Shown piece by piece: positions 8,816 through 45,775 of a stretch of DNA of 64,000 nt (position 1 is its first letter; each line of letters opens with the position of its first letter). The notes beneath the pieces were generated by a model. That model had not been told where the DNA came from. It searched no databases and was given only the letters and a program-made list of their open reading frames with translations. This DNA is from a virus. The translations under genes and the position numbers were made by a program. The stretch is from IMG/VR virus record IMGVR_UViG_3300045988_117466, positions 64,001-128,000 of that record; one strand, 5' to 3'.

Positions 8816-8890
8816 AAAGTCTCCTTTCTAAAAAATTATCCTGTAAGATGTACAAACTTGTTTTTTAACCTTTACTTTTGGAAGTTATTG

Positions 8891-9097: not shown

Positions 9098-9450
9098 AAT
9101 ATCTACATACCTTTTTTGCCCAATTGGTGTGCCGGATACTAGAAAGAAAACCCACGTAATAGATTAGGCGAAGATAATACAAAACCTGCTGCTTTAAAAA
9201 ATAATTGAATCAATTCACGATATGTGCTATGATGATATTGACAAGTAAAGTTAAGACATGAGCTTAGCCACTTCAAACCAAATTCAGTAAGAATGGGCAT
9301 CTTACAGGAATTTGAATGATGATTAAAGGATAGTAAAAGGAGGTTACAAGGAGATTAATACTTTGCACTTATCCCGATTGGGAATCTTCCCTTTAACGGG
9401 TTAATCCAATCATCACTGTGAATTTAATTAAACAAATTCACCCATGAGAG

Positions 9451-9485
9451 AAGACACTCACTATTTACAGTGGGTGTCTTTTTCT
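9451..9485. terminator. Bidirectional intrinsic terminator hairpin
   Basis: AAGACACTCAC-loop-GTGGGTGTCTT flanked by A-run and T-run. Confidence 0.5.
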
Positions 9486-9491
9486 TTACTT

Positions 9492-9710
9492 TTATAATAA
9501 ATTTCCATCCCTCATAGAAGCAATTTCTTCCTTAATGTACATAGACTTCATTTTAGGAGTCAGCTCATCAAAAGGAGTTAATCCTTCATCATCCATATAG
9601 TTCATCAGAGCTCCCAGTGAAATTGAATACAGTCTATTCCTGTATTTCATTCGCATAACTCCGATTAATAAAATTCCAATAACAAGTAATAATAATAAAT
9701 TAATTTCCAT
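9492..9710 (-). CDS. Small single-pass membrane protein
   Basis: ATG at 9710 preceded by GGAGG. N-terminus MEINLLLLLVIGILLIGV is a transmembrane helix. Confidence 0.45.
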   Translation of the reverse strand: MEINLLLLLVIGILLIGVMRMKYRNRLYSISLGALMNYMDDEGLTPFDELTPKMKSMYIKEEIASMRDGNLL

Positions 9711-9759: not shown

Positions 9760-12700
9760 TTATTTACCGATCGTAGGTTTACGACCAATTTTGTGATATT
9801 CTTTTAGTTTGTTAGCTTGCTCTTGATCATAAACCTGTTTTGCAACAACCTTAAGATCATTCAGAACACTCTTATCAACCATGCCTCCAGATTCTACTTT
9901 GATCAATGCATCATAATAAGAAGAGAAGTCTCCAGTACCAGTCATAATATCTTTTGTCTTAGAGGCTTTAACAACTGATTCAGAAATCTTAACAGCTTGT
10001 TTTAGCACATCAGATGTTTCTGGCTTCAGTAAGATTTCGTCTCTACGGACAGTAGCAATACCGTGATCATGATTACTTTGGATTACACCATTAAGTTTAG
10101 AAATTGGTATTACATCATCAATGACACCACCGTTTCTTACACCTGCATTTTTCAGAGCTTTTAAGATTTTATTTGATTGAGCTTGAGTATATGTTTTCCC
10201 CTTAGCTAAATAAAATTCTTTACCCTTCTTAGAGTTTTTGCTAGTAATTACTCCGAGTTTTCTACCAAGGTCTCCCATTGGGCCTGGATTGTGTACAACA
10301 TCATAACCCTTACTGGCTAAATAATTATTTAGAGGAGACCAGCTTTTAAGCTGAGCTTGAGTATAAGGAGTTCCTGTGTGGAATTTTAATCCTAATGACT
10401 TAGCTTTCTTTTGAGCAGGAGAAAGTTGAATTGTAACACTGAAACTTACTACAATTCCATTAGCCGATCTACACGTTGGAGTAATTGTTCCCTCATTGTC
10501 GCCTTTTGTGGCTGTAATAGTACATGAACTACCAGAGCCTGACATTGTTACATATCCAAGGCTGTTAGGATACCAAGAAAATGATTGTCCAGCTCCATCT
10601 GGAGGAACAATATCAGAAACAGTAACAGTCTTACTTTCTCCAGGGGCTAAAGTAATAGATGCTGGGCTAACACTGAAAGACATAAGATTATGTGCCTGTT
10701 GTTCGGGTGTTTTCATAGAACCACTAACACCACTAGCATTTCCAGTTTCAACTTTTGAAGAATCAACCTTAGAACCCGTAATACCAGTTGTACCAGTTAC
10801 ATTGGTATCAGGATTTGCAACATTATTAGTCACAGAGCTGTTCTTGTTCTGAGTATCTTTTGCGTTCTGTTCAGGTGTCTTGCCATTAGCAGAGCTATTG
10901 TATTCAGAATGATATAACTCACTTAGACCATTAATAAGTCCAGAATTAATAGCAGTGTCATTAATCTTCTTAAAGACATCAGAATAAGAATCTCCAACCT
11001 GTTTTAAGAACTTGCTAATAAGCTTAGATTGTTCATCCAGAGAACCGCTTAAAGATTTAAGCTGTTTATCCAAAGACTCTTGTAATTTTTCAGTCAGATC
11101 ATCGTATCCTTGGGATTCCATAGAATATTGATGTTCTTTCTTAGTGTCATCCATCTGTTCCTGGGCATCAGCAATTTGAGCATCTAATTTAGCTCTTTGT
11201 GCTTTTGCAGCTTCTCCTTCGACACCCTCTAAAGCAGCACGCTGAGCTTCAAGTGCTTGCAAATCTTTTGTCTGACTCTTGATGTTTTTGTCGTAATCGT
11301 AGTATTCTTTCTTACGACTCAATGCCTCTTTACGTTTATTAATGACTTTGACGAGAGCATCAACTTCAGCTTGCATCGTTGTCTTACCAAGTTCTACAAT
11401 TTGATTCTTATAGTCATTGGTATTTGTTGCAGCCTCACGAAGTTGTTTGTTGATTTCAGCTAACTTACTTTCAAAAGTGGCATCGCCAACCATTCGTTTA
11501 CCATTCTCGTCAAAAGTATCATGTAATTTATAGAGAGCATTTCTTTGCTCCATAAGATCAGCCATGTTTTGTTGGCCTTGACGAACATTATCGCTCAAAA
11601 GAGCAATTTTAGCTTTACCGTCTGTAGTCAACTTACCTGTGTCAGGATCGTTTAAGTAATCCTGATTCAGCATATTCATAAGATCGTTATTCTCATCGAT
11701 ACGAGTATTTCTCTTATCAATCTTACGACTGCTTTCATCAAGAGGGATCATAATAGCTTCTTGACGTAACTGTTCATTCTTTTCATCTAAAGAATAATTC
11801 TCTTCACGCCTTGAATACCAATCATCATAAAGCTCTTTGTATCTTTCAGAATCCTTAGCAACCTTATTCATCAGTTCCTGATCAGTTTTCATGATCTCAG
11901 CATTGACAGCAGCTCTGTCATTATTTCTAGCAATCTGATCAGTTTTTGACTGTTTAGTAGCATAGTCGCCATGAGCTTCAGCCATAGAAGCAGTATGTTC
12001 TAAAGCAGTAGCAGCATGTTCAGCTTCATCTGCAAGTCTTGTCAATCTATCAATTTTGATCTGATCAATTTCTTTTCTCACATTTGCAATAGCAGTATCA
12101 GTATCAACAATATTATTCTTAAAAGTTTGAATCTGAGCTTCATATGTATTCTTTTGTTCATCTGTTAAGATTCCCTTTTTCTTAGCCTTATCATACTCTG
12201 CCTGATATTTATTCAATTCTTGTAGCTGAATATTTTTCTGATTCTGATATTGCTGAATCTGATTGTTTAAATTAGCTGTTTTATTATCAAAAGTATCTGT
12301 CCCTTGAGCAATATTAAGATCATTGATCTTTTGATAGTTCTCTAGGATAGCAGACGTTTTAGATGCCATAGCATCATAATAACTAACAACCTTTTCAAGT
12401 TTGGTTTGTACCAGTTCTTGTTGTTGTTTCCTAAGCTCTTCAACTTGCTGTTTGCATTGTTTAGCTTTATCATACCAGTTCTTATATTCTTCAACAGCGC
12501 TACGAATCTTATCATTACTAATAGTTTTGATATCAATAGACCCGTTACGTACTTTCTTGAAATAAGATTTTAAAGCTTTTTGGTTCTTAGCTTTTGAAGC
12601 TTTTTTTGTTTTAGGAGCTTTCTTAACTGCTTGTTTCTCAAAGCTTTCATAGAATTTCTTATATTTCTTATAGCCTTGATTATTAGCAGTGATAGAAGAA

Positions 12701-13177
12701 CCAACACTCTTTAAAGCTTCATCGTAATCATTAACAGCAGAAGTAAGATCATGAACATTTTCTGCTTTAGCTGTCCAAAGATCAGTAGCAGCAGAAAGAT
12801 TTTCAATCTTTACTTCAATGAAATCAAAAGCTTTACCTATCTTATTAAGATAATTTTCAAGAGCTGATTTCTTAGATTTGGTTTTCTTCTTACCATTCCC
12901 AGAACCAGACTTACCAGAACCGGTTTTAGATTTACTAGAAGAAGTAGTTTTCTTCTTTTTACCTACAGTAGTTTTACTACCATTAGATTTAATTTTAATT
13001 CCAGCAGAGTTAGCATGAGCAGATCCATGAGCAAATGCTCCTTCACCACCAACAATCTTAGCTCTACTTCCAGTTTTTCCTTTGTTTAGGAGTTCCTTTG
13101 TTTGTAGGTGATTAAATACTATATCACCACGTTTGAGGTTCACAAATTCTGGGCCTTGAGACCCTACTGTAAACCAT
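9760..13177 (-). CDS. Tape measure protein, exon 3 (5' end is a best guess)
   Basis: Frame is open from 13188. It has no SD and only a GTG at 13143. It opens ..GSQGPEFVNLKRGDIVFNHLQT.., a TMP motif. Long coiled coil, Big_2-like Ig segment (SVSPASITLAPGESKTVTV). Confidence 0.6.
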
Positions 13178-13320
13178 CTATTACCACGTCAATTATGTTT
13201 TCATCGGTTCGCAACACCGACAAGAGTTTTCACTCCTCATGCTTTCACATGAGTTCAGACTATATCTTTTACCTGATTTTATTGTATGTATGTTTTGTTT
13301 GTTTTTTATTTGTGGGTATT

Positions 13321-13355
13321 AAAAAAGAGCAGAAGTAAAATTACTTTTGCTCTTC
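13321..13355 (-). terminator. Intrinsic terminator after the intron A cargo genes
   Basis: GAAGAGCAAAAGTA-loop-TACTTCTGCTCTTTTTT on the minus strand. Confidence 0.6.
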
Positions 13356-13380
13356 GGTAGAGGTTAAATTAATTTGTTTA

Positions 13381-14268
13381 TTATGCTCCTATACTTCGCC
13401 ATTTGCCTTTTGACCATTTGCAAATTTCTTCATCATCTATACAAAGGACATATTTTTTATTCCCGATTTTACAATTACAATGAATCTCTTCATCTCGGAT
13501 ATCCCACCATGTTAAAGATCCTTTGATTTTAAAATTTACCTTAGTCCATGTGCCAGGTTTGAGATCGATGTATTTTTTATTCCCTGTTAGTTTTAAGTTT
13601 CTGTCATATTTTTTGTAATCACAATCTAAAGAATAAGCACCTTTAGAATAAATACGAATTTTTTTATTACTTGCGTTAAAAAGCTTTGTTTTAAAAATAT
13701 TTGATCGAGTATCGTATTTATGCAACCAGCCGTTCATATGAATGCTTTTATATGGTTTTACAATTACGGAAATTGTTTTTTTAAAAGTTGTTGTTTTGTC
13801 CCAGGCGTTTTTAATTATATGATTGTTTAAGTCATCATCATAGTTCCCATTTTCTCCATAGCGATAATCATCATATACAGCAAAATGGTCTTCATAACAA
13901 TCAACACTTAATGTTATTTTGGATTTACCAAATTTCTTTGCATCAACATATGTATATAAATCTTCAACTCCAATTCCTTCATAAGAGTCTAAGGATATAT
14001 TTTTATTAGATCTTGACCATGAAATTGAATTAACATCCAAAGTGTATCCACCCTCTTCATCACCATAGTGCTTCCATAGCGTAGCATCATTTTTCATAAA
14101 TTCCCCATTATAGTATAGCTTAGGAGTAATTTTTTTCATCTGTCCATAATACATTGTAATAGTTTTAGGGACAGAGATACTGAAACCTGCTTGAGCGCTT
14201 TTGGTGTTAATAATCCATAAAAAACTAAACACTAATATAAAGGACATTAATTTTAAAAATTTTTTCAC
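13381..14268 (-). CDS. Secreted protein (intron A cargo)
   Basis: GTG at 14268 after GGAGGAGGG. Signal peptide VKKFLKLMSFILVFSFLWIINTKSAQA. Cys-rich C-terminus. No nuclease motif. Confidence 0.55.
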   Translation of the reverse strand: MKKFLKLMSFILVFSFLWIINTKSAQAGFSISVPKTITMYYGQMKKITPKLYYNGEFMKNDATLWKHYGDEEGGYTLDVNSISWSRSNKNISLDSYEGIGVEDLYTYVDAKKFGKSKITLSVDCYEDHFAVYDDYRYGENGNYDDDLNNHIIKNAWDKTTTFKKTISVIVKPYKSIHMNGWLHKYDTRSNIFKTKLFNASNKKIRIYSKGAYSLDCDYKKYDRNLKLTGNKKYIDLKPGTWTKVNFKIKGSLTWWDIRDEEIHCNCKIGNKKYVLCIDDEEICKWSKGKWRSIGA

Positions 14269-14284
14269 AATAGCACCCTCCTCC

Positions 14285-15154
14285 TTAAAATTCCTTTGTA
14301 ATCGGTTTTGTGAATGGTGTTTCACTTTCATAATAAGTATATTGCCCAGGGGATACCTTATCAGAATTTCCATAAGAAACTATTTCCATTTTGACAATCT
14401 TGTCCTTTGTTTCAAAACTGCTTTCTTCCCACATAGATTGATATGCTTTTAAATTATAGTAGTATAGAGATTGATCGCTTACTACGGTTCCATTTTTATC
14501 ATAAAAACGAATATCAATATTGGCCATATCATAATCATAGTCTGTTAGATTTTTGATTTTTATTCTATATGTCCGATATCCGTATGTAGATGCTTTGACT
14601 TCAATTTTTTCAATTTTATACGTGTCATCTATAAGCGTGGCTCCTTTCGGACAATATCCATTCTCTTTTATAAGTTCGTCATATGATTTCTTATCCCCTT
14701 TGGTTGTAAAAGAAAGATGTGTCTGATCAACTAACTTTTTTAGAATTTCCGCACGCTGGCTATTGTATACATAATAATTGTATTGTATCTTAGTCGGAGC
14801 ACTGGTGTAATCATCAAATAAATCATTTTGTGTATTTAAGGTTTTAATATATTCAGAAATTAAATTTTGTGTATTCTTGTTTTCGAATTGGATTTTAGTT
14901 TCTGAATATTTGTTTAGTGGTTTTAATTCAGTAGCGATATACTTTTGCATCATAGCTGCGTAGTCAGATTGAGATTGATTACTATCATCGGTCTTATCAC
15001 TAATCTCCCATCTTTTTTCGAGCCCAGTTTTTAAATCATTTGCTACTTGTTTGTCTGTGATTTTGGCTTCTTTTTGAGGAGCATCTTTCCCACAAGCACA
15101 AAATAAACATAAACTTGTAAGAAGCATACATCCAATTAAAATTTTCTTTTTCAT
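14285..15154 (-). CDS. Lipoprotein (intron A cargo)
   Basis: ATG at 15154, 7 nt after GGAGGG. MKKKILIGCMLLTSLCLFCAC-GKD is a lipobox-like signal. TATAAT lies at 15192-15187 on the minus strand. Confidence 0.65.
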   Translation of the reverse strand: MKKKILIGCMLLTSLCLFCACGKDAPQKEAKITDKQVANDLKTGLEKRWEISDKTDDSNQSQSDYAAMMQKYIATELKPLNKYSETKIQFENKNTQNLISEYIKTLNTQNDLFDDYTSAPTKIQYNYYVYNSQRAEILKKLVDQTHLSFTTKGDKKSYDELIKENGYCPKGATLIDDTYKIEKIEVKASTYGYRTYRIKIKNLTDYDYDMANIDIRFYDKNGTVVSDQSLYYYNLKAYQSMWEESSFETKDKIVKMEIVSYGNSDKVSPGQYTYYESETPFTKPITKEF

Positions 15155-15542
15155 ACATTTTCCCTCCATAATTTATTTATAAAGCAATTATACATTATTT
15201 GACATGTTTTTCATAGAGAGAATATTTGTTTATCATATTTATCAGGTAATTTATCATTTCGATTTAAACATTACTGTACCGCCATTAGCTTGCGGCTCTA
15301 CTCCTCATAAGAGGATAGTCGTTGAACCTTATCCTATTCGGATCTTGGCTGCTGATTGTCCATTGTAGCAGAAGCAGGGGATTTAACCTCGCTTCCATAT
15401 AATTAATTCTTTTTACTTTCGTAGCGTTCACATCTAGGCATATTTCATCCTTCTGTTGTAGCTTAATTATCTTTAAGACTTTCCAGCAATTAGATAAATT
15501 TTCACATATGTATTACTACATAAGGTCGCATATGTGGTTTAT

Positions 15543-18500
15543 ACGACAAGTTCGTCTCCTAATTCTCCTGTAAGAGCTCGTTCATCTTGTTTTAATCCCC
15601 AATCGCCACCATTAGCATGAGCATCTCCAGCAGATGATTTGAGCTTATCCGTTTTCTCTTGTAAATATTTGTTCTTTTCAGCCTGCACAACAGGATTAAT
15701 TTCTGATAAATCAGAGATTTTTGTTGTTCCCATCGCAAGAGCACGGCTTCCAAGCTTCTTAATTGTTCCGTGAGCAAAAGCACCAAATTCTTCAATATCA
15801 TCAAGCTCATTGTCGTACCAGTCTGTTAAGTCATCAACAGTACCTTGAGCGAAAGCATTTGAATATGGAATGAAAGATCCGTGTGCATTTGCTGTACCAT
15901 GGGCTTTGCCTTTCTTTTTTTTCTTTCCTGAGCTTTTCTTACCTCCTGAGGGCTCAGAAGGAGTACTACCAGTAACGAAATCAACAATTCGAGTGATATG
16001 TTTTGCTGCCCATCCTGCGATTGTTCCATCAGCAAGAGAGGTGTCCGCCTTAAGTTGTGCAGTGTTTGTAACTTTTTGGCTTTTCCATTCCTGAACTTTT
16101 TGATTCGCTTCAGTAATATCTCCTTTAAGATGTCCGGTTTTATCAACCTCAATCCCAAGGTATTCTAAAAGCTTTTGATTAGCTTTAGAAGCATCTACGT
16201 CTAATTTTCCTTCTTTGTCAATTGGAATATTTAAAAAATCAGCTATTTCTTTGGTGGCTTTTTTAGTATCTGCATCAACTTTAACGGTTGTAGACTTCTT
16301 TCCGCCTTTGCCAAGATTATCAATATCTTGTTTTGCCTTTTTGGTATTAGCCTTTACTTCAATAGTAACTTGACCTTTTTTCTTATGTTTATTGTATTCA
16401 TCAACAAGACGTTTAATCTCTTTATCAATCTTATCATTGCCAGTTTTTTCTACGGTATTATCTTTGCCAACCTTAAGTCCAGATTTTAACTTATTAAGTT
16501 GAGTGTTTAATCCAGATTTTGTTTTGATTTGCTTTCTAAAAACACCATTATCACTTTTGCCACTGACCATATTGGCAGTTTCTTTTTCAAGTTTAGATAC
16601 AGTTGTGTTTAAATTTTTGATTCTGCTTTTTAATTTACTTTGAGCTTCATTAAGTTTTTTCTTTGCACTTGCTTTATCATCGTCAGTTTTAGCATCTTTC
16701 CAAGTATCATAAGCATTGCTATAATCCTTTTGAGCTTTCTGTACAGAATCTCTAGCAGATTTAACTTTTTGATAAGAATTTTTCTTCCAGGATTCATATT
16801 TTTCGGTAGAATCTATAGCGTAATGGTTTTTGTCAGCTGTTGATTTAGCATTTGTAATAATTGAGTTACCATATTCAAACGCCTCTTCAGAATACTTATT
16901 ACCATATTTGTTTACAAGCTTTTTATCATTGGAATCAACAGCTCCTTCAAATTTGCTTTCTGCATCTTTAAATTCAGCCTTATCCTGAGCAATCTCAATC
17001 TCAAACTTTAACTTCTTGACCATCTCATCTGGGATATCTTCGCCAGCGTTTTTCAGTTTAAGAATCTGCTGTCTGTAATCCTCAATCTGTTCTCCTAATG
17101 CTGTTTTACCAGCACCATCTTTCATATTTTTCCATTTATCAACCAGTTGGTCAACATAACTTTCAGCTTTTTCGTACTGTTCTGTAACAGATTTAAAATC
17201 AATCTTACCACCATAATCTTTTAAACGATTCAGTACAGCTTCGAAAGGTTCAATACCCATACCCATTGCTTTAGCGGCAGTAGCAGTATTAGTGATCTTT
17301 CCAGAATATGTACCTTCAGCAGTTTTCTTTAAAGTACCAAAATCAGTATTAGCTTTTTGGGATTTGGCAGATAAATCATCTAAGAATTTAACCAGACCGC
17401 TATCATCAGAAGTAAAATACTTAGTAGTCTTAGCCCATGTCTTATCAAAAGTAGCAGCATCAGTCTTACCAGATGAACTCATAACACTTGTCAATGTTTT
17501 GAAATCATCTGTTCCAATAAGTCCTTTGTCACGTTCTTTCTTCTGAGCATTGAATGCTTCACGCATTGCTAAGTAAGTATCACCAGAGTCAGCTGTTTCT
17601 TTTGCTTGAAGATAATCACTCCAAGTAGACTGAGAGTTTGCCTGATTGATTAATTTAAGACGCTCTTTCAACTGATCAAGACTACCTGTCCATTTCTCAG
17701 TTTTAGAATTTAAGATATCAAAGGCTTGAGATGCTTCAGTAAGATTCAAACCATCAATGAAAGATTGAGTATCTTTATTATCACCAAGCTTTTCCTTGAT
17801 ATCTTCAATCATTGATTGAACATCTTTACCATCTTTTAAAAATCCTTCAAAATTTCCTTTATCGTCTAATTTGAAATCAACATTAAAAGAATCAGCCAAA
17901 GATTTGTTTAATTGCTCAATACTAACCCCATCATCTGTGGCAGCCTCTTTAAGCTTATCATAAGCATCTTTGGTATTATTGAGCCAATTCTGAACACCCT
18001 TGTTACTAGATTTATCATAGCTTTTAATAAACTTATCAAGAGCTCCTTGTGCTTTATCATCTTTAGCAAATTTCTTTGCTGCAGCAATAGTATTTTCTCG
18101 TTGTTCCTTGACCCAATCTTTATCTTTTAGATTATCTCTAGTCGCAGTATCTATGTTATAAGTATTAGATCCTAATCCTGTAAGGAAGCTTTGAGCACGA
18201 CTACCCAATTTATTATAATCAGTAATACTACCTGGCAATGAAGTGGCAATATCTTGATTGTATTGATCAAGAGCCTTTTGGGTTTTAGTAAGCCCAATTT
18301 TATATTTTTGAGCATAACCTGAGATTTTAGCGATTTCTTCACTAAGATCAGTTCCCTTAGGTAAATAGTCTTCAGTTTTATCCAAGATCTGCTTATATGA
18401 ACCAATAAATTTGTTCATGTCAGCTTGTTTGTATAAATCGAAGGTTTGATCCTTTGGTAATTTCAACACATCTTTGGCAGCCTTGTTGAAAGCAGTAGTT

Positions 18501-19531
18501 AACTGGCTGGTTTTATCGCCTTGCAGACCGTTTCTTAACTGAGTAGTTAAGGTGTCCATGTCGTTGCCCCAGAACTTATCAACACCAGTTCCAGAAGCTT
18601 TCTTAACATTCTCTATGTTACCTTCAACTAACTTGTCCCAAGTTTCATCAGAAGCATATTTCTTTTGTGCGCTTTCTTGTTTCTTCTCCTGAGATTCAAT
18701 CGCTTTGTCCATCAATCCAGATGTTTTAGCAATTGCATTTCCTTCTGCATCATATCCTGAAATAAGAGAAGGAGTAGTATCTAAAATTTCCTTGCGGATA
18801 CTTAAGAATCTCTCATAAGAAGAAGTATCTAAACTGATGTTATTACCGTATTCGTCTACACCTTTGGATAAAGATTCAAATTCTACTTTATTCCCTTTGA
18901 GAGTGGAAATATTACTTTGGACATCAGACATTTTGTCCTGATAAGTGCTACGGGTTTTATCAGCTTTTTCTACCTTATCTTTGTCATAAGTAGCAGCTTT
19001 CTTAATGTTTTCAATTCCTTTAGAAAGAGCACTTCCTGCAAATTCCATGATTAGACTTGCACCTAATCCTAATAACACATTTGCGGCAAAAGCACCAGCC
19101 TTAGCAGCTATGCCAGAAGCTTTAACATTTTCCACGAAACCTGCTAATCCACCTGCGGCAGATTGAGCAATGCTACCAGATTTTTCAACCTCTTTGTTGA
19201 ATTCTTCAAGACCTTTTCCATAACTATTTTTCTTATCACTAAGATCATAATTATTTTGCTTAGCTTGACCGTAAAGAGTACTAGCTGTATCACGACCTTT
19301 TTCAGTCTTCATTTCATCCTGAAGTCGCTTAAACATGTCCTCTTTTTCTTTGGTAGACTTATTACCAAAGATTTCAGGAACCATGCTGTTACTAAAGAAA
19401 TCCTGCAATCTACTTTGATCAGACTGCATATTCTCATAATTAGCCTTACGTCTTGTAGGACTAAGTGCATTCAGAATAGCACTACCAATTGGAAATTCAT
19501 TTTTACCAGTTTCTTTATTGTACTGTACAAG
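15543..19531 (-). CDS. Tape measure protein, exon 2 (ends are best guesses)
   Basis: Opens at TTG 19534 with no SD. K/E/D-rich coiled coil. Ends ..DAHANGGDWGLKQDERALTGELGDELVV and then stops. Confidence 0.6.
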
Positions 19532-19901
19532 CAAACTGTTTACTCAAGGGCAGGGAAATACCCTATTTTCACACTGGTAAAATATGTATTTGACAATCAC
19601 TAATGCAATATTCTATACTAATTATGTAACAAGAAATATGTATCATATCTCAAAGTAATAACACACATGGGGCTCACAATTCAGTGAGCCTTTTGTGTAT
19701 CTGAAATTAAAGGAGAAGAGAGGTTCATAAAGATACCTCTTTTTCGCAATTAACCTTGCAATATTTGGAAACATAAGTTATAATTAGAAACATCATGGAA
19801 TAATTAGTTCCCCAATTAATTATTTTCATACTAAAGGCATTCCTAGGAGGTAGGGATGCCTTTTCTCCATTTATGGGGTAACGATTCGTTCACCCATCAA
19901 A

Positions 19902-20708
19902 TTAACTTTCTAACTGATCTTCCAGATCCTTAATCTTAGAATCTCTAAATGCAATTTTCTTTCCAGTACTACGATGATTTGTTTCTATGTATCTACGTTT
20001 CAGATTGTTTAGTACATACTCTGCAGTCATTCTGTACATTGGATTTAGAGAACCAGAAGTTTCAATAATCGATTCAAGTTTATCATCGATCATTGTTACG
20101 ATTTTCTGCTTATACTCAGTTGCATTTAGTTTTCTATGATACTCATAGCGGTCTTTCTTTTTTAAATGAACGTGAACATCAATGATCTTATCAACAGTGG
20201 CTTCCAGATTTGTGTAATCAGATTCTAAAAGAACACGATCAATGTTGCGTACAGAATATTTAATTTTATCTGCATCATACTGTCTCTGAAGCTGACATTC
20301 ATCTGAAACTGCTACATCATATAGATCGTTATTATCTTGCTGAAGTTGTGTGATCAGCTCAATCATTCTCTCAAAAGCATCTGTGTATCTAGCTGTAAAG
20401 ATAAGAGCTTTGTTACCAGTAAACTTGTTTACCAGCATTGCAAATCCTTTACGATCAATATAATACATAGGACGCTCCTGGTTATTTAAATCAAGATAAG
20501 AGCCGAGGGAAAAATTTCCGGCGGCTAATTCAGGGATAACTTCTATAAAATGACGAATCTTTTTCATTACATCTGCATGGTCTTTCCCATAAGTCTCAGC
20601 CACATTGAGAGAAGTGGTGTACACATCACCATTGATCTCTTCAAGACCAAATTCCTCATTAATTTCTGCGATTTCACATTCAATAGCTTTCTTTGTTTCT
20701 TTTAACAT
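19902..20708 (-). CDS. Rha-family phage regulatory protein (intron B cargo)
   Basis: ..TSLNVAETYGKDHADVMKKIRHF..NFSLGSYLDLNNQERPMYYIDRKGFAMLVNKFTGNKALIFTARY.. matches the Rha/pRha pattern. Confidence 0.7.
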   Translation of the reverse strand: MLKETKKAIECEIAEINEEFGLEEINGDVYTTSLNVAETYGKDHADVMKKIRHFIEVIPELAAGNFSLGSYLDLNNQERPMYYIDRKGFAMLVNKFTGNKALIFTARYTDAFERMIELITQLQQDNNDLYDVAVSDECQLQRQYDADKIKYSVRNIDRVLLESDYTNLEATVDKIIDVHVHLKKKDRYEYHRKLNATEYKQKIVTMIDDKLESIIETSGSLNPMYRMTAEYVLNNLKRRYIETNHRSTGKKIAFRDSKIKDLEDQLES

Positions 20709-20743
20709 AATTCAATTTCTCCTTTTAATATAAACTTAATTTC

Positions 20744-20769
20744 AAAAGGGGTCGCATTTCACGACCCCC
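20744..20769 (-). terminator. Hairpin terminator between the Bro and Rha genes
   Basis: GGGGTCG-TGAAATG-CGACCCC followed by TTTT on the minus strand. Confidence 0.5.
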
Positions 20770-20793
20770 TATCAACAACAATCTCACCAAACT

Positions 20794-21600
20794 TTAATCT
20801 TCAAGATCCCCAACAACTCTGTAAACAAGTTTCTGACCTTTACCAGTTACATAAGTCTGTGGAACAATCACATTGCAAATCACATGTTCACCAACTTCAA
20901 AACATCCGTTCTCAACGTATCTCTGATATGGCATGTTGTCCCGCATCAGGATTCCATTACTTCTCAGAATCTCAAAAAGACGATTCCTTCCAATGTCATA
21001 TCCATCATTCTGCAACAATTTGGCCATTGTGTTCATGTCGATCGTATCAGAAGAAGCAGTAACACATCTTGCAAAATCTACATCTTCTTTGGAAGCTTCA
21101 AGTTCTCCACGAAGCTCTGCGATTGTAGCTTGCTGAATTTCTAATGCTTTGAGTACAAACTCAGCTTCAGACAGATTTTTATATGGAATGTATCCACCTG
21201 TACGTCTGATCTGTGGAAGAACTTCAGATGTTACCCATCTTTTGAAACGATGTAATTTTTCAATTCTCTCTTCAATAAGGGGGTCATTTTGTGACACCCC
21301 CTTTGCTTTAGCAGGTTGCATTAAGAATAATAATGAATATAGTCCTGATTCATTAAGAACTGTGATGTTTTGCATTCCTCCAGCGGTTTGAATTTTTGCC
21401 ATTGTTTTGTCAGCTTTGTCAATTCTACGCAAGCTACGCTTGTGATTTGTATCTCCAAAAGCTATGCATACATCTTTTCCAACAAACCAAGGTTCATTGT
21501 CAATCTCAACGCATCTGATTGATCCAAATTCGTCATTTACGAAGTTCATGATCTGATTGTTATTTCCTACTTCATTTTCTGCTTTTGTTAAATTTGCCAT
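20794..21600 (-). CDS. Bro-N / KilAC antirepressor-type protein (intron B cargo)
   Basis: ..FGSIRCVEIDNEPWFVGKDVCIAFG..TAGGMQNITVLNESGLYSLLF..FKRWVTSEVLPQIRRTGGY.. is classic Bro-N. The C-terminal half is KilAC-like. Confidence 0.8.
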   Translation of the reverse strand: MANLTKAENEVGNNNQIMNFVNDEFGSIRCVEIDNEPWFVGKDVCIAFGDTNHKRSLRRIDKADKTMAKIQTAGGMQNITVLNESGLYSLLFLMQPAKAKGVSQNDPLIEERIEKLHRFKRWVTSEVLPQIRRTGGYIPYKNLSEAEFVLKALEIQQATIAELRGELEASKEDVDFARCVTASSDTIDMNTMAKLLQNDGYDIGRNRLFEILRSNGILMRDNMPYQRYVENGCFEVGEHVICNVIVPQTYVTGKGQKLVYRVVGDLED

Positions 21601-21670
21601 ATTAAATTCTCCTTTTCTTCAGAAAGGTGCACCAAATGGCATAGAACAGATGGTGCTGATGATTTGCTTA

Positions 21671-21759
21671 TCCTTCTATGCATATATGGCTAATTTACTA
21701 CCCCTTTAAAACACCAGGCTCTACCTAATGTTTTAAGACTCAATTAATGTGGTAAGTCT
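21671..21759 (-). promoter_or_regulatory. Conserved hairpin cassette, copy 1 (upstream of the Bro gene)
   Basis: TTACCACATTAATTGAG, a long imperfect hairpin, then GGGGTAGTAAATTAGCCATATATGCATAGAAGGATAAG. Two more copies lie at 48054-48144 and 48238-48330. Confidence 0.5.
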
Positions 21760-22233
21760 GCTAGAGCAGTATAAAAAGAGTATTAAATTATGTTAATGAG
21801 TATTTATAATATATCATATAAAATTCATTTCCCTATGTGCAAGCATGTTTCCATGCTGATAATTTTCTAGCGGCACATTCGCATACAGTTCTGATCATCC
21901 CTTTCTGATGTCACTCGTAAGGTGAGTTAACCAGATTCCCATTATGATCGATGGACGTTCCTCTAATATAGAGGCTTCGCTGCGGATTCTGTATAAATAT
22001 TGATCTTATTACTATATCTTAGGAATTACCCCTTGCCCTTAATACATCACTGTACTAAGTTAGTAATCAATATCGTTTAACAGTTCCCGTACATAAATTA
22101 TCAAAAAGTATTTCAGTTTCGGTTGTTTTCTAAGCAATCTCTTATTTGTATCACCATTTCGATACAAACTCGTTCTGTGTTACCACTAGATTGCTCTGGG
22201 CATTGTACATGAGGACAACTGATAATTTGCCCT

Positions 22234-25200
22234 ACCCAGCTTTCCTTTCGCTCCTGCGACTCCTAAAGCACCCATAAAGGCTGTTCTAAGAAGCCCAGCT
22301 TTAGTTACTAAATTTGTTATTTGAGTTCCAGCATCTACAAGTCCTTTGATAAAATCAGAAGAAATAGAAGTGTTCCACATTTCTTGGAAACTTGCTGTCA
22401 GCTGATCAACTTTACCTTGGATGGAATCAAGTTGAGTTTCGTTTTCACGAAGAGCTGATCCTTCTGAGTTTTGTGTTTCGTTGTAGACTTTTTCAAGCAT
22501 CTCTGGCTTCTGTAAAATACTGGCAACAATATTAGCTCTATTTTTTCCTGCAATTTTCTCTAAAATAGAAGCTTGTTTAAGGTCACCACCATCGGTAGAA
22601 CCAATTTCGCTCCAGATCTTACCCAATCCAAGTAAAAATTCATATGGATTTTTATAAGATCCATCATCTTTTAATAAATCAAAGCCTTTGTAGTCGTTTG
22701 ATGCTACTTTAGTTTGATTTTTAATGAGATCTCTCAACTGAGATGTGTTCTGAATGTAACCATCAACATCTTCACCTGCTTCTTGAAGCACATTCATATC
22801 AGTGCCTCGAATTCTTAAGGATACTGTTTTTAAACCAGCTCCAACGCTCTCAGGATTTTGCACGACGGAATTCCCAACTGTAGTAAGAGCAACTGACTGT
22901 TCATAGTTAGCACCTGCCGCCTGTAAAGCACTAGCAGATCTCTGTAATGAACTAGCAATCTCATCTGATGAAATAGGCTCTAAGTTACCGATATTATTCA
23001 AAACATCAACAACATTCTCTACATCATCAGCACCCTTATCGAATCCCTGCATAATAGAAATCAATGCATTAGTAGCATCATCTACCTGCTCAAATTCTGA
23101 TACATTCATGAGAATACCTGTCCACTTAGACATCTTCTCAGAATCTTGTGTGTTATAACCTAATCTAGCCCAGTCAGCAGTAGATTTGGTTAATTCCACA
23201 GCATCTCTACCGATATCTTTACCAGTAGCATACATATCTTTTTCGACAGTAGCATAAACATCACTCGTATCACTTGTGACTTTCTTTAACTCTGTCATTG
23301 CAGCATCCATTTCTTTGATGCTTTCAATTCCTTGTTGGAATCCTTGCCATACGACATCGATTCCACCCATTGAGATCAAGTACTTACTTAACTTAGTAAC
23401 TTCTTGACCCATATCTCCAACAATTTGTCCGAACAAACTCTTATATTCAGAACGACTCTTAAGCTGTGATCTAGCAATACCAGTATCCTGATTAAAATTA
23501 ATAGCATACTTTTCAAGCTTTCCATCATCTCTTGATCTTGCTTTGATATAAGCAGCCATTCCATTTCTACCCATACTGGTTTCAAGAATGTTACTGTTTA
23601 CACCAGAAGCTCTAAATAATTCTTCAGCTTTAGCTTCATTGAAATCATTTAAGGATAATCCTTCTCCGATAACAGTTCCCTGATTGTTCTGGAGCTTAAA
23701 TTGGTTTCTAAGTCTACCATGTTCAGTAAGCTCAGCGTTCAGTCTATTAAGCTCTCTAATATCTTCCTCAATTTCTTTATTGTCAAAGAAAACATCTCCA
23801 CTATGTTTTTCTTTTAAATCTCTAATTCGGTTAACTGTAGCTTCAACCTTAGTCGCAAATTCTGTTGTATATTGTTCAAGATCTTGACTAACAATGGTCT
23901 TTGATAAAGCTCTGTCAGCAGCATTTTTAACACGATCAGATTTAGGATTAGTATTCCCTAATGCTGTACCATCGTTTGCTCCACCAACATTTCCACCGGC
24001 TAAAACCTTGTTCATGTTCTTCAAGCCAGTAGCAATCTCACCAGTAAGATTAAATTTCTTATTTAAGTTATCAACCAGTCTTGTAACTTCACGAATTGAA
24101 CTACCAATACCAGCAAAAGCACCTGCGATCTTAGCAGAATAAGCAGTAGACTTGTCAGCTAGATTAGCAATCTTATTTGTCATAGTCTCAATATCAGAAG
24201 CTTTCTTGTCTGTAAAAGACTGTCCTGTATTGAATTTAACTTTTAAATCAAGATTCTTTTTCAGATCATTGATAATCTTCTCAACAGTAACTAAATCGTC
24301 TAATACAGCATCAGTATTGATACCAACTTTAATAGGCTCAGAAGCTTTTTCTCTTAAAGAAGTAAGCTTGCTTTCGGCTTGTGTTAACTCTTCATCATTA
24401 ACATTGATGTCAATTTTTGTGTCTCCGCTGTTAGAATCCTCTTTAAATTTTTGAGTTGAAGTAATAGCTTTCTCAAGATCTTCAACATTGCCTTTAAAAT
24501 TAACCGCAACGTCAATAGCATCCTTAGAGCGAAGTTCATTTACTTGTTGAAGAATGTTATCAATATTCTCTGTATTAGCTTTAAAATTAATAGTAATATC
24601 TATATTTTCTTTTGATCTTAGTTCATTAATTTCTTGTAAAATTGTATTGAACTCGGAATCGTTTGCTTTAAGATTAACAACGATATCTTTGCCTTCGTAA
24701 GAAGCAATCTTTTCATCAACCTTAGCCAATGCAGATTCTAACTGAGAAGTGTCAGCAGTAACTTTTACAGAAGATTCTTTAGGGTGTTCACTTTCTGTAA
24801 CACTGTTTGTCTTAGTTTCAGTAACATTTCTGCTTGGAAATTCACGAATTGCATCTTTGTTTTTGCTTAACCATTCACGGCTTTCTTGAGACCAAGGAGT
24901 TTCAATAGTAGCTCCTTTTTCAGCTTTAATAGATGTGTATGTATCAACAGTTTTAACAGCTTCTTGAAGACCTTTGGCTTCCTCGGCATAGATATTTTCT
25001 CCGTTCTTAATCTTTTCATTGAATTTCTGGATATATTCTCTAGCGCTTTGGAAAGTACTGATCAGGTCTTTGTTACTCATGTCTTTCATGTCAGCAGGCA
25101 TTTCAAAATCTTTATCAACTTCCCTTTGATGGAGTTCTAATTTTTTAACTGCTTCAGATAAGAATTGTGTAATATTTTTATCAACAGCATGAGTAGTAGA

Positions 25201-26307
25201 ACCTTCTTCTGGCTGATAATTGCTTAGTATTTTACTGTAATACTCGGCTTTCTGTAATTCCTCATCGGTAAGAGTTTCACCTTTGGATTGTTTTTCCATC
25301 AGGTTCTTACTGCCGGCTTTTGCACCGTTGTATTGTTGAGGACTAATTGCTTGTCCTTCTTGAAATTTATATGGTTTACTAGAGTCAAACCCAGAAATCA
25401 AAATACCTTCTTGGGCTAAAATATCACTCCATTGTTTATTGAATTGGTTTTTAAGTTTATTGGTTACTCCTGTAGTCTTTTTGATATTTCTATCAGTGCT
25501 AGTCATAGCCTGAGTAAGAGCCTTATTAACCTGTTTAACAACATCCTCTTCGATCGGAGATAAAATATTTTTTAAGTCGATTCCCTGGGCTTGGAACAGG
25601 CTTTTATAACCTTCTGTACCTGCAAAATCAGTTTGTCCTGTTAGCAATTCTTTTATAAACTTTTGCCTAGAAGTAATAGTATTTCTTAACTCACCAGCCT
25701 GTTTGAGCATTTCATCGTTCTTACTCCAATCAGAATTTGACATTAAACCATGCAGTTCTTCAAAAGCTTTTCCAATATCTTCTTGAGCTAGCATTCCAGC
25801 CATTGCATATTCTTTAAAATCATTTAAAGAGATACCATTTTTAGAATTACCATGTAATTCGTTATATTGTGTTTTAGATTCGTTGTAAAAATCTTTATAT
25901 TTATCTTGCTTATAAGTCTTTTTTTGTACTTCGTGTACCTTAGAAGCAGCTCTTGTGGCAAGATCACTGTCCTCGTAGCTACGTTTAGAAACCTTGCTTA
26001 AATTGTCGTTCTTAATTTTTTCAAGATCATTGTAAGTAGTTTTAAGATTCTTTAACTTCTTTTCTGCATCGGCCAAATCTTTAGATTCATATACAAATTG
26101 AAAATTTGTTAATCCAGTTTTATCAATATAACTTCTGATGCTTTTAGCAACTTTATCCATAGAGGATTTATTGATATTAGCACCAATAGGTACTTGGACT
26201 TGTTTAAAACCATTTACTACTTCGCTTTTAGCTTTTTCTAAAGAGGCTTGATCAACGTCAACCCCCATAGAGGCAGTAAAAGAAATTACTTGTGTAGTTT
26301 CTGCCAT
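22234..26307 (-). CDS. Tape measure protein, exon 1
   Basis: ATG at 26307 with GGGGGTG SD. TP901-type TMP core (..KSTADWARLGYNT..LQAAGANYEQSVALTTVGNS..GAGLKTVSLRIRG..). The 15 codons after 22234 (RANYQLSSCTMPRAI-stop) are read as intronic. Confidence 0.8.
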
Positions 26308-39643: not shown

Positions 39644-39656
39644 GTTCTTTCACCTC

Positions 39657-45692: not shown

Positions 45693-45702
45693 TTGGACAT
45701 AG

Positions 45703-45775
<73 letters not shown>

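What the first reader, a model, noticed from the sequence alone, without database searches (positions are those of the whole stretch)
9760..26307. Tape-measure gene split into three exons by two >2.3-kb group I introns (predicted 3,826-aa product)
Seen in sequence:
- Three consecutive minus-strand ORFs (26307-22186, 19534-15539, 13143-9760) are all long Lys/Glu/Gln-rich coiled-coil sequence of TMP type.
- Piece 1 has the TP901-like TMP core. Piece 2 ends AHANGG...GELGDELVV. Piece 3 opens ..GPEFVNLKRGDIVFNHLQT, so the usual TMP GE.GPE.V / L..G..V.N block straddles the break.
- Only piece 1 has ATG plus SD. Pieces 2 and 3 open at TTG/GTG with no SD.
- Break 1 can be drawn as a group I splice site: CTGGGT| (22239-22234) pairs with GCCCAG (22201-22196), giving U.G at the splice site. 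The adjacent TACAA pairs with TTGTA at the start of piece 2 (P10), with a G at 19532.
- Break 2: GTCGT| (15547-15543) pairs with GCGAC (15529-15525), AAACCA (15540-15535) pairs with TGGTTT (13176-13171), with a G at 13178.
- With these sites the exons are 4074+3989+3418 nt = 3827 codons, in frame.

Inference: a single 3,826-aa tape measure. At the usual ~0.15 nm per residue that implies a tail of roughly 0.55-0.6 micrometre.
Basis: partly seen in the sequence, partly recalled or inferred. Interest (0 to 1): 0.8.

Follow-up and report, generated by a model that had tools for sequence, protein, structure and literature searches.

The report
Tape-measure gene split by two introns
A gut-phage tail tape-measure gene is interrupted by two large self-splicing-type (group I) introns, a known kind of arrangement, and these introns carry regulator and secreted-protein genes instead of the usual homing nuclease.

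Summary

- **One gene in three pieces.** The three minus-strand ORFs are pieces of a single tape-measure gene. Uninterrupted homologues (P0331, P0342, P0254, P0247-P0249) align collinearly straight across both breaks.
- **Both gaps are group I introns.**
  - A covariance model built from 25 unrelated viral group I introns scores 106 bits (E 3e-21) in gap 1 and 59 bits (E 7e-11) in gap 2.
  - Rfam's Intron_gpI model gives 41 bits (E 3e-9) for the 5' half of gap 2.
  - P1 keeps its U.G pair and covaries with divergent copies of the same introns at the same sites (L021, L155). So do P2, P7, P8 and P10.
- **Correction.** The 3' splice site of intron 2 is most likely G13190|A13189, not 13178|13177. 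The predicted product is then 3,830 aa.
- **Translation evidence.** Relatives show 8 synonymous and 0 non-synonymous changes upstream of piece 3's "GTG start". One of these changes destroys that start codon.
- **Not new in kind.** Group I introns in prophage tape-measure genes were described in 2008.
- **Unusual features.**
  - Both introns are present in every relative found.
  - Neither carries a recognisable homing endonuclease.
  - They hold exchangeable cargo genes: Ant plus Rha in one, a lipoprotein plus a secreted protein in the other.
- **Caveat.** Splicing itself is inferred, not shown.

The parts
22234..26307 (-). TMP exon 1 (4074 nt, 1358 codons). It contains the PhageMin_Tail core at aa 1027-1195.
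   Evidence: ORF with ATG and Shine-Dalgarno sequence. PF10145 at 61.8 bits and TMP PHROGs. The 5' splice site after U22234 follows from P1 and its covariation.
19532..22233 (-). Group I intron 1 (2702 nt), ending in omega-G at 19532.
   Evidence: The R1 covariance model hits 21943-22106 at 106.2 bits, E 2.9e-21. P1, P2 and P7 covary with L021. The exon junction matches unsplit P0331 and P0342.
22196..22201 (-). Intron 1 internal guide sequence GCCCAG. It pairs with exon CUGGGU 22239-22234 (P1, with U.G at the splice site).
   Evidence: L021 has AGCGGU/GCCGCU at the same place: three compensatory pairs, U.G kept.
22203..22209 (-). Intron 1 P10 strand UGUACAA. It pairs with exon 2 UUGUACA 19530-19524.
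   Evidence: 7 bp complementarity.
21943..22106 (-). Intron 1 core: P3 5' region, P4 (UACGGG/UCCGCA), P5, P5a, P5b, P6 (CCUCUA/UAGAGG) and the R element GUCCAUCGAUCA.
   Evidence: Full-length match (positions 1-165) to model R1, which was built from unrelated viral group I introns.
21893..21949 (-). Intron 1 P7 5' strand GAUCA 21949-21945, P8 hairpin 21934-21905, J8/7 AAAGGGA 21904-21898 and P7 3' strand UGAUC 21897-21893.
   Evidence: Read from the sequence. L021 has GAGUA/UACUC with AAGGUG before it, and the family has GACUA/UAGUC. The P3 3' strand is not settled.
20794..21600 (-). Intron 1 cargo ORF 1: anti-repressor (Bro-N + KilAC/ANT), 268 aa.
   Evidence: PF02498 and PF03374, plus phrog_130. 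It is 99.6% identical in L003.
19902..20708 (-). Intron 1 cargo ORF 2: Rha-family regulator, 268 aa.
   Evidence: PF09669 and TIGR02681. Relatives carry a different 153-aa Rha here.
15543..19531 (-). TMP exon 2 (3989 nt). It ends with the first two bases of a Val codon.
   Evidence: More than 120 homologues of 1322-1343 aa. Its N-terminal 300 aa match internal stretches of large contiguous TMPs.
13190..15542 (-). Group I intron 2 (2353 nt, IA-type with P7.1/P7.2).
   Evidence: RF00028 at 41.2 bits, E 2.8e-9, over 15249-15548. R1 at 58.8 bits over 15314-15503. Helices were checked. They covary with L155. The 3' splice site follows.
15525..15547 (-). Intron 2 P1: GUCGU|AUA 15547-15540 pairs with UAUGCGAC 15532-15525, with U.G at U15543. 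The loop holds the P10 strand ACCAC 15538-15534.
   Evidence: Rfam alignment. L155 has GUGGU|AU / AUGCCAC and P10 UUACG x CGUAA.
15241..15320 (-). Intron 2 P7 5' strand GACUA 15320-15316, P7.1 and P7.2 hairpins 15318-15278, P3 3' strand GAUAAAU 15255-15249 (pairs with 15499-15493) and P8 5' strand UUACCUGAU 15249-15241.
14285..15154 (-). Intron 2 cargo ORF 1: predicted lipoprotein (MKKKILIGCMLLTSLCLFCAC|G). It lies in the P8 loop.
   Evidence: ORF and lipobox. phrog_34415 and a weak FxLYD domain. It is 98% identical in L006. L003 has a different lipoprotein.
13381..14268 (-). Intron 2 cargo ORF 2: secreted protein of unknown function. It has a GTG start after GGAGGG and a signal peptide.
   Evidence: No family match. 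It is replaced by other genes in L003 and L006.
13318..13355 (-). Intrinsic-terminator-like hairpin followed by U6, inside intron 2 between the cargo and the P8 3' strand.
   Evidence: dG -13.9 kcal/mol, z -6.4. It lies in the 3' flank that is conserved in relatives.
13190..13277 (-). Intron 2 3' part: P8 3' strand AUCAGGUAA 13277-13269, J8/7 plus P7 3' strand AAAGAUA-UAGUC (13262-13258), P9 13253-13236, P9.1 13235-13224, P9.2 13220-13204 and omega-G 13190.
   Evidence: This stretch is nearly invariant in 20 relatives, while the codons that follow change synonymously.
9760..13189 (-). TMP exon 3 (3430 nt). It starts A-CGU-GGU-AAU-AGA (…V RGNR WFTVG…). The P10 exon strand GUGGU is at 13187-13183.
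   Evidence: Unsplit homologues P0247, P0248, P0249 and P0254. L155 has the same boundary at UUG|ACGU. There are 8 synonymous and 0 non-synonymous changes in 13189-13141.

Best explanation
The region 26307-9760 (minus strand) is one tail tape-measure gene of an SPbeta-like phage of gut Firmicutes. The host is probably a member of the Lachnospiraceae.

**Proposed mechanism**
- The primary transcript carries two group I introns, 22233-19532 and 15542-13190.
- Each intron folds into a ribozyme. Its internal guide sequence pairs with the last 5-6 exon bases (P1, with U.G at the cut).
- An external guanosine bound in P7 attacks the 5' splice site.
- After the terminal G of the intron enters the same site, the freed exon end attacks the 3' splice site, which is aligned by P10.
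- Ligation of the three exons gives an 11,493-nt reading frame for a 3,830-aa tape-measure protein.
- The long loops of the introns hold accessory genes instead of a homing endonuclease. These loops are the region 3' of P7 in intron 1 and the P8 loop in intron 2. Intron 1 holds an Ant anti-repressor and a Rha regulator. Intron 2 holds a lipoprotein and a secreted protein.

**Shown versus inferred**
- Shown: the ribozyme-type cores, the covarying helices, collinearity with unsplit homologues, and coding-type evolution upstream of the apparent start of piece 3.
- Inferred: that the introns actually splice, the exact 3' site of intron 2, and how and when the cargo genes are expressed.
For: **One gene**
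- Contiguous homologues cover the pieces in order.
  - P0331 aligns to spliced aa 1255-2220 in a single HSP across junction 1 (E 3e-91), and to aa 2660-2947 across junction 2.
  - P0342 aligns to aa 1143-1636 across junction 1.
  - P0254 has collinear HSPs in all three exons.
- At junction 1, AKGKLG|LVQYN aligns with AKSNLGLFTSN and FKNIGFFQL without an indel.
- At junction 2, P0247, P0248 and P0249 read GELGREILV-RGSR-FVTIGDNGPEF, ELVV-YGNR-WWTVGDNGAEF and ELIV-RDGR-WFTV.

**Ribozymes**
- RF00028 scores 41.2 bits (E 2.8e-9) with P1, P2, P3, P4, P5, P6 and R aligned for intron 2.
- Model R1, built from 25 viral group I introns outside this phage family, scores 106.2 and 58.8 bits.
- 8 of 19 loci sharing the P5b-Q motif have full-length RF00028 hits of 59-108 bits.

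**Covariation**
- Intron 1 against L021:
  - P1 CUGGGU/GCCCAG becomes AGCGGU/GCCGCU.
  - P2 GCAAUCU/AGAUUGC becomes GAGAGU/ACUCUC.
  - P7 GAUCA/UGAUC becomes GAGUA/UACUC.
  - Sources.
- Intron 2 against L155:
  - P1 GUCGU/GCGAC becomes GUGGU/GCCAC.
  - P3, P8 and P10 differ entirely in sequence but remain complementary.
  - Sources.

**Translation across the junction**
- There is no Shine-Dalgarno sequence before pieces 2 and 3.
- In relatives, the 16 codons from 13189 show 8 synonymous and 0 non-synonymous changes. One is GTG to GTA at the supposed start.

**Precedent within the family**
- Relatives carry a third group I intron exactly between SVG and AGLKT of the PhageMin_Tail core, where the window is continuous.
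- Group I introns in prophage TMP genes are documented (PMC2504315).
Against: - No RNA or protein data exist, so splicing is inferred.
- Rfam's own gathering score is not reached. Intron 2 scores 41.2 against a cut-off of 50. Intron 1 gives no RF00028 hit even at E up to 10.
- The P3 helix of intron 1 could not be assigned canonically.
- Intron 2 contains a strong terminator-like hairpin with a U6 tail on the coding strand, upstream of exon 3. This could stop TMP transcription.
- No intron-less allele of either intron was found among close relatives. No spliced junction sequence was found in JGI metagenome contigs.
- No homing endonuclease is present, so the usual explanation for intron persistence does not apply.
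Confidence: 0.85

Rival explanations
1. The ribozymes are dead relics. The tape measure is made as three separate polypeptides, translated from ATG 26307, TTG 19534 and GTG 13143, which assemble non-covalently in the tail.
For: - Every relative has the same split, with piece 2 always 1322-1343 aa.
- No intron-less close relative and no spliced junction were found.
- Terminator-like hairpins lie inside both introns.
- Rfam's gathering score is not reached.
Against: - There is no Shine-Dalgarno sequence before the TTG or GTG.
- GTG 13143 is GTA in L142, L151 and L156. The 15 codons upstream of it, which contain no start codon, evolve only synonymously.
- The noncoding intron parts are 95-99.8% identical while exon 2 proteins are 75-93% identical. 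This is not expected for dead spacers.
- The helices covary in divergent copies.
Confidence: 0.07
2. Only one of the two gaps is a working intron. The other remains a true gene boundary, so the phage makes two tape-measure-like proteins.
For: - Intron 1 has no RF00028 hit and its P3 is unresolved.
- Intron 2 has an internal terminator-like element.
Against: - Intron 1 has the strongest model score, 106 bits. It also has three covarying helices and an indel-free junction match to unsplit proteins.
- Intron 2 has complete P1-P10 and coding evidence across its 3' junction.
Confidence: 0.05
3. This is a decaying prophage whose tape-measure gene was broken by two insertions of moron cassettes. It is a pseudogene, and no full-length product is needed.
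For: - The inserts carry typical moron-type genes: Ant, Rha, a lipoprotein and a secreted protein. They have promoter-like and terminator-like signals.
Against: - The same architecture is seen on many long viral contigs of up to 284 kb.
- The exons stay open over 11.5 kb and change synonymously.
- The inserts are flanked by ribozyme elements that bridge them, with the P8 strands on either side of the cargo.
Confidence: 0.03

Closest known systems
Group I introns TMP-IVS1, IVS2 and IVS3 in tape-measure genes of Bacillus cereus-group prophages (Tourasse and Kolsto 2008, PMC2504315)
   Same: - Group I introns of subclasses IA1/IA2 interrupt a prophage TMP gene at up to three sites.
- P1 and P10 are adapted to each site.
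- Introns are shared between related phages.
- Some lack a complete homing endonuclease gene.
   Different: - Here the introns are 2.35 and 2.7 kb.
- Each carries two non-nuclease genes.
- They are present in every relative found.
- The assembled TMP is about three times longer (3,830 aa against more than 1,200 aa).
Classical phage group I introns: T4 td, nrdB and nrdD; Twort orf142 with three introns; SPO1 and SPbeta introns. This entry rests on my own knowledge.
   Same: - IA-type core with P7.1/P7.2.
- The ORF sits in a peripheral loop.
- Several introns can occur in one gene.
- Insertion is at conserved sites of essential genes.
   Different: - The classical introns carry GIY-YIG, HNH or similar homing endonucleases, or no ORF at all.
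- The window's two TMP introns carry Ant, Rha and secreted proteins, with no nuclease domain detected.
Divergent copies of the same two introns: L021 at junction 1 with an NYN-domain ORF, and L155 at junction 2 with a Zn-ribbon/PD-(D/E)XK-like ORF
   Same: - Same insertion sites in homologous TMP genes.
- Homologous cores: R1 scores 53 bits in L021, and L155 has identical S/P9 elements.
- The ORFs lie in the same loop.
   Different: - Their ORFs look like nucleases, that is, possible homing enzymes.
- In the window's clade these positions hold accessory genes.
Cluster J mycobacteriophage introns in capsid and tail genes (PMC3706429)
   Same: Self-splicing introns in phage virion structural genes. 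The title reports splicing.
   Different: A different phage group and different genes. I did not read the details.
Fungal mitochondrial group I intron carrying rps3, and Clostridioides IStrons. This entry rests on my own knowledge.
   Same: Group I introns whose loops hold a gene other than a homing endonuclease.
   Different: - They are organellar or bacterial chromosomal elements, not phage introns.
- Their cargo is a ribosomal protein or an IS transposase, not regulator or surface-protein cassettes.

Membership tests
Group I intron | P1 helix between the internal guide sequence and the 5' exon end, with a U.G pair at the 5' splice site | tested here: met
   - Intron 1: CUGGGU/GCCCAG.
- Intron 2: GUCGU/GCGAC.
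- The Rfam alignment places P1 there.
- There are compensatory changes in L021 (three pairs) and L155 (one pair), with U.G kept.
Group I intron | Conserved P4-P6 domain and the R element (J6/7 plus P7 5' strand) | tested here: met
   - Model R1, built from independent viral group I introns, scores 106.2 bits (intron 1) and 58.8 bits (intron 2). Both matches are full length.
- RF00028 aligns P3-P6 and R of intron 2.
Group I intron | P7 with a G-C pair (G on the 5' strand) forming the guanosine site, preceded by a J8/7 of 6-7 nt and by P8 | tested here: met
   - Intron 2: GACUA/UAGUC after AAAGAUA, with a 9-bp P8 that bridges the cargo.
- Intron 1: GAUCA/UGAUC after AAAGGGA, with P8 at 21934-21905.
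- P7 covaries across the family as GACUA, GGCCA, GAGUA and GAUCA.
- These assignments were made by inspection, not by a model.
Group I intron | P3 helix forming the P3-P7 pseudoknot | tested here: inconclusive
   - Intron 2 is met: AUUUAUC/GAUAAAU.
- Intron 1 is not settled. The canonical slot has no good partner, and a 9-bp helix lies 3' of the P7 3' strand.
Group I intron | Terminal guanosine (omega-G) and P10 pairing with the 3' exon | tested here: met
   - Intron 1: G19532 with a 7-bp P10.
- Intron 2: G13190 with a 5-bp P10 (GUGGU/ACCAC), which covaries in L155 (CGUAA/UUACG).
Group I intron | Score at or above Rfam RF00028's gathering threshold (50 bits) | tested here: not met
   - The whole-window search gives no hit.
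- The 5' half of intron 2 scores 41.2 bits.
- Intron 1 gives none at E up to 10.
- The ORF-interrupted cores cannot be scored as a whole with the tools available.
Group I intron | Self-splicing with guanosine and Mg2+ | not testable with these tools
   This needs in vitro transcription or RNA-seq.
Mobile (homing) group I intron | Intron-encoded homing endonuclease | tested here: not met
   - The window's intron ORFs are Bro-N/ANT, Rha, a lipoprotein and a secreted protein. No nuclease family matched in Pfam, PHROGs, NCBIfam or PADLOC.
- Divergent copies (L155, L021) and the third intron of L003 do carry nuclease-like ORFs.
Mobile (homing) group I intron | Sporadic presence or absence among close relatives | tested here: not met
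   - Both introns are present in all relatives found.
- The third intron, in exon 1, is sporadic: present in L003-L005 and absent from the window, L006 and L007.
Phage tail tape-measure protein (TP901/PhageMin_Tail type) | PhageMin_Tail domain, a hydrophobic Gly/Ala segment after it, a long coil, and a gene position between the tail chaperones and Dit | tested here: met
   - PF10145.
- Exon 2 aa 100-300 match internal parts of hundreds of large TMP-like proteins.
- Dit (phrog_33) lies at 8815-7982 and a minor tail protein at 7955-4530.
- The pieces are collinear with P0254, P0331 and P0342.

The most novel reading that the evidence does not exclude
In this phage lineage the two tape-measure introns may no longer be selfish homing elements. 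They may have become fixed "cargo bays".

- They would be highly conserved ribozyme scaffolds whose long loops hold exchangeable, independently expressed accessory-gene cassettes.
  - Intron 1 holds Ant plus a swappable Rha.
  - The P8 loop of intron 2 holds a lipoprotein plus a variable second gene.
- Splicing would let the phage park moron-type genes inside an essential late gene at no cost.
- The conserved terminator inside intron 2 may additionally gate synthesis of the full-length tape measure.
Probability: 0.35. Interest if true: 0.65.

Novelty: new variant of a known kind. Interest (0 to 1): 0.5.

Why it matters
**Annotation**
- Gene callers report this family's tape measure as three or four unrelated "hypothetical" proteins. 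Searches show hundreds of such fragments in public data.
- Recognising the introns restores a single protein of about 3,830 aa. It also predicts an unusually long tail, near 0.57 micrometre if all of the protein acts as a ruler.

**Biology**
- The introns have lost nuclease genes and instead carry regulators and surface proteins that differ between close relatives.
- If these genes are expressed, group I introns would be a route for adding accessory genes inside essential phage genes. This would be a safe insertion site that RNA splicing repairs.
- The window has at least five group I introns in 64 kb. That makes this phage family a good system for studying intron fixation and cargo exchange.

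Tried and rejected
**Searches that found nothing**
- Rfam on the whole window (gathering threshold) and on 9.6 kb (E-value mode) found no group I hit. Only a 421-nt search recovered intron 2. Intron 1 and its L021 copy were never seen by RF00028.
- Megablast of the 16.5-kb region against GenBank phages found no relative.
- tblastn of the junction 2 peptide against phages found no match.
- A GTDB genome scan with piece 2 found no relative, so no host genome was identified.
- Exact scans of JGI metagenome contigs for spliced or intron-less junctions found none.
- PADLOC and NCBIfam gave no function for the cargo ORFs.
- An Rfam search of the 8780-9500 spacer between the TMP and Dit found nothing.

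**Leads that turned out false**
- The apparent 48-nt deletion in L007 is a run of N from scaffolding.
- L017 shares a 17-mer by chance, inside a coding region.

**Readings tried and dropped**
- I first took AAGAUAUAGU at 22020 for the S element of intron 1. It is part of P5b, as in the whole intron family.
- I first took CUUACGAGUGAC for the R element. The model places R at GUCCAUCGAUCA.
- MFE folding and duplex searches did not resolve P3 of intron 1.
- The promoter scan is not above the shuffled expectation: 40 sites found against 35.6 expected.

**Mechanisms considered and rejected**
- An intein, because stop codons and separate ORFs lie in the gaps.
- Translational bypass, because the gaps are 2.3-2.7 kb.
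- A group II intron, because there is no reverse transcriptase ORF and no Rfam hit.
- DNA-level excision, because there is no recombinase in or next to the gaps.

Full report
**1. What is there**

On the minus strand the window has three long ORFs: 26307-22186 (ATG, 1373 aa), 19534-15539 (TTG, 1331 aa) and 13143-9760 (GTG, 1127 aa).

- Piece 1 has PF10145 PhageMin_Tail (61.8 bits) and matches TMP PHROGs.
- Only piece 1 has a Shine-Dalgarno sequence.
- Downstream lie Dit (8815-7982) and a minor tail protein. Upstream lie small chaperone-sized ORFs. This is the tape-measure position of a siphovirus tail module.
- Gap 1 holds an Ant anti-repressor (Bro-N + KilAC, 21600-20794) and a Rha regulator (20708-19902).
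- Gap 2 holds a lipoprotein (15154-14285) and a secreted protein (14268-13381).

**2. Are the three pieces one protein?**

Yes, by comparison with uninterrupted homologues.

- A search of 1.8 billion representative proteins with the first 300 aa of exon 2 found hundreds of large proteins in which this stretch is internal.
- BLASTP of the spliced product against six of them gives collinear matches:
  - P0331 (2131 aa) aligns to spliced residues 1255-2220 in one HSP (E 3e-91) across junction 1 at residue 1358, and to 2660-2947 across junction 2 at residue 2688.
  - P0342 (3309 aa) aligns to 1143-1636 across junction 1.
  - P0254 (2501 aa) has ordered HSPs in exon 1, in exon 2, across junction 2 (50% identity) and in exon 3.
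- At junction 1, AKGKLG|LVQYN lines up with AKSNLGLFTSN (P0331) and FKNIGFFQL (P0342) without an indel. P0231 also runs across it.
- At junction 2, three short contiguous proteins read GELGREILV-RGSR-FVTIGDNGPEFVNLKRGDIIFNH, ELVV-YGNR-WWTVGDNGAEF and ELIV-RDGR-WFTVKGGAQF.

**3. Are the gaps group I introns?**

Rfam at its default settings says nothing.

*Intron 2*
- A search restricted to 15150-15570 gives RF00028 Intron_gpI at 41.2 bits, E 2.8e-9. This is below the 50-bit gathering score.
It also aligns P2, P3, P4 (AAUUGCUGGAAA), the Q element, P6 and R (GGUUCAACGACUA), then a 57-nt insertion (P7.1/P7.2, typical of subgroup IA), then the P3 3' strand.
- The rest of the core lies beyond the cargo:
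  - The P8 5' strand UUACCUGAU (15249-15241) pairs with AUCAGGUAA (13277-13269).
  - This is followed by AAAGAUA-UAGUC, which is J8/7 plus the P7 3' strand. It pairs with GACUA 15320-15316.
  - P9, P9.1 and P9.2 follow.
- So the two cargo genes sit in the P8 loop.

*Intron 1*
- Rfam found nothing.
- Its motif UAUAGUAA-N-AUCCGCAG-NN-AAG occurs in more than 120 viral contigs. In 8 of 19 loci tested, the motif lies inside full-length RF00028 hits of 59-108 bits.
- I aligned the P3-to-R region of 25 such introns, none from this phage family. I built a covariance model R1 from them and searched the window with filters off.
  - Intron 1 scores 106.2 bits (E 2.9e-21, 22106-21943).
  - Intron 2 scores 58.8 bits (E 7e-11).
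- After R (GUCCAUCGAUCA), intron 1 has a P8 hairpin, then J8/7 AAAGGGA, then UGAUC, which pairs with GAUCA.
- The P3 helix of intron 1 remains unresolved.

**4. Covariation**

The close relatives are too similar to help. Their intron flanks are 95-99.8% identical. Two divergent copies at the same sites are informative.

- **L021** is a TMP about 43% identical that is broken at junction 1, with an NYN-domain ORF in the intron. R1 scores 53.4 bits there. Its helices are:
  - P1 AGCGGU|/GCCGCU against CUGGGU|/GCCCAG. That is three compensatory pairs with U.G kept.
  - P2 GAGAGU/ACUCUC against GCAAUCU/AGAUUGC.
  - P7 GAGUA/UACUC against GAUCA/UGAUC.
- **L155** is a divergent copy of intron 2 with a 415-aa Zn-ribbon/PD-(D/E)XK-like ORF in P8. 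Its helices are:
  - P1 GUGGU|/GCCAC against GUCGU|/GCGAC.
  - P3 AUCUAU/GUAGAU against AUUUAUC/GAUAAAU.
  - P8 of 10+6 bp with an entirely different sequence.
  - P10 UUACG with exon CGUAA.

**5. The 3' splice site of intron 2**

In the same phase there are also G13187 and G13190.
- In L155, nucleotide similarity to the window's intron ends at ...UUG|ACGU. After that, L155 encodes RNGKYFTIG where the window encodes RGNRWFTVG.
- With G13190 the exon starts A-CGU-GGU. GUGGU (13187-13183) then pairs with ACCAC (15538-15534) as P10.
- Relatives L142, L151 and L156 differ from the window at 8 third-codon positions between 13189 and 13141. All 8 changes are synonymous. One turns the "start" GTG 13143 into GTA. 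The 77 intron bases just upstream are almost invariant.
- I therefore place the site at 13190|13189. Exon 3 is then 3430 nt and the product is 3,830 aa. This is an inference from comparison.

**6. Distribution**

- More than 120 homologues of piece 2 (75-93% identical) are all 1322-1343 aa. Searches with junction peptides found no fused protein among close relatives. Both introns therefore appear fixed in this lineage.
- By contrast, L003, L004, L005 and many other relatives carry a third 1.6-kb group I intron.
  - Its P1 is UGGGU|/GCCCA and its P7 is GACUG/CAGUC.
  - It lies between ...SVG and AGLKTVS... of the PhageMin_Tail core, where the window is continuous.
  - Its 382-aa ORF is homologous to the ORF of L155.
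- Cargo is exchanged between relatives:
  - Ant is 99.6% identical between the window and L003, but Rha is only 42% identical.
  - The first gene of intron 2 is always a lipoprotein, in two unrelated versions.
  - The second gene of intron 2 differs in all three genomes compared.
- Names attached to relatives by NCBI point to Lachnospiraceae and Anaerostipes hadrus metagenome bins. No GTDB genome carries the phage.

**7. Open points**

- Intron 2 has a conserved terminator-like hairpin with a U6 tail (13355-13318; dG -13.9) on the coding strand, before the P8 3' strand. Intron 1 has strong hairpins after Rha. How late transcription passes them is unknown.
- The promoter-like sites before the cargo genes are not more frequent than in shuffled sequence.
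- No spliced junction was found in JGI contigs. This is uninformative if that collection holds no transcripts.

**8. Comparison with what is known**

- Group I introns of subclasses IA1/IA2 at three sites of prophage TMP genes were described in the Bacillus cereus group. That work also reported site-adapted P1/P10 and HEG-less copies (PMC2504315).
- Introns in phage terminase, polymerase, capsid and tail genes are also known.
- The finding is therefore of a known kind. It differs in three ways:
  - Intron size and cargo: two non-nuclease genes each.
  - Apparent fixation in the lineage.
  - The length of the assembled protein. Contiguous TMP-like proteins of 3,256-5,652 aa do exist in metagenomes, however.

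**9. Verdict**

- Novelty: a new variant of a known kind.
- Interest: 0.5.

Noticed in passing
window 46034-46645 (-), with tRNAs at 45702-47151 (-): A ROOL RNA (RF03087, 303.7 bits) is embedded in an array of seven tRNA genes (Thr, Gln, Trp, Arg, Tyr, Ser, Ser).
   Followed up: no
window about 31380-32770 (-): A third group I intron.
- R1 scores 57.7 bits at 32592-32736.
- It splits a phrog_5251 gene. Exon A is 33198-32770 and exon B lies within 31382-30789.
- It carries a frameshifted phrog_4645 endonuclease as two ORFs, 32410-31988 and 31978-31442.
   Followed up: partly
window 50185-50593 (-): A probable ORF-less group I intron. R1 scores 27 bits (E 7e-4) at 50422-50509, with R-like GTTAAACGACTA and S-like ATGATATAGT. 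It lies in the 409-nt gap between ORFs 52330-50594 and 50184-49114.
   Followed up: partly
window 39643-41025 (-): A weak R1 hit (20 bits, E 0.02) at 40910-40989. It lies directly after the terminase large-subunit ORF (42888-41026) and before a GIY-YIG/NUMOD homing endonuclease (40784-39822). This is probably an intron near the 3' end of the terminase gene.
   Followed up: partly
L003 5459-7095 (also in L004 and L005); the corresponding window site is about 22933-22840, which is uninterrupted: Relatives carry an extra 1.6-kb group I intron in the PhageMin_Tail core of the TMP, between SVG and AGLKTVS. It holds a 382-aa Zn-ribbon/PD-(D/E)XK-like ORF that is homologous to the ORF in the L155 copy of intron 2.
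   Followed up: yes
window 13318-13355 (-), 19833-19863 (-) and 19661-19700 (-): Strong terminator-like hairpins lie inside both introns, on the TMP coding strand. The one in intron 2 is followed by U6 and is conserved in relatives.
   Followed up: partly
window 22219-22228 and 21856-21865 (-): A 10-nt repeat, AAAUUAUCAG, occurs in the P1 loop of intron 1 and again 3' of P7. Both copies are complementary to UGAUAAUUU at 22103-22095. L021 has an analogous CUGUU/AACAG pairing. This may be an alternative or peripheral helix.
   Followed up: partly
L043 and L104 (IMG/VR contigs): Other viral contigs also have group I introns inside PhageMin_Tail-type tape-measure genes. Intron-split TMP genes therefore seem common in metagenomic phages.
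   Followed up: no
window 27397-27867 (-): A Holliday-junction-resolvase-like ORF (phrog_190) lies just upstream of the tail chaperone-sized ORFs. A RuvC-like endonuclease sits at the same place in Enterocloster phage PMBT24.
   Followed up: no
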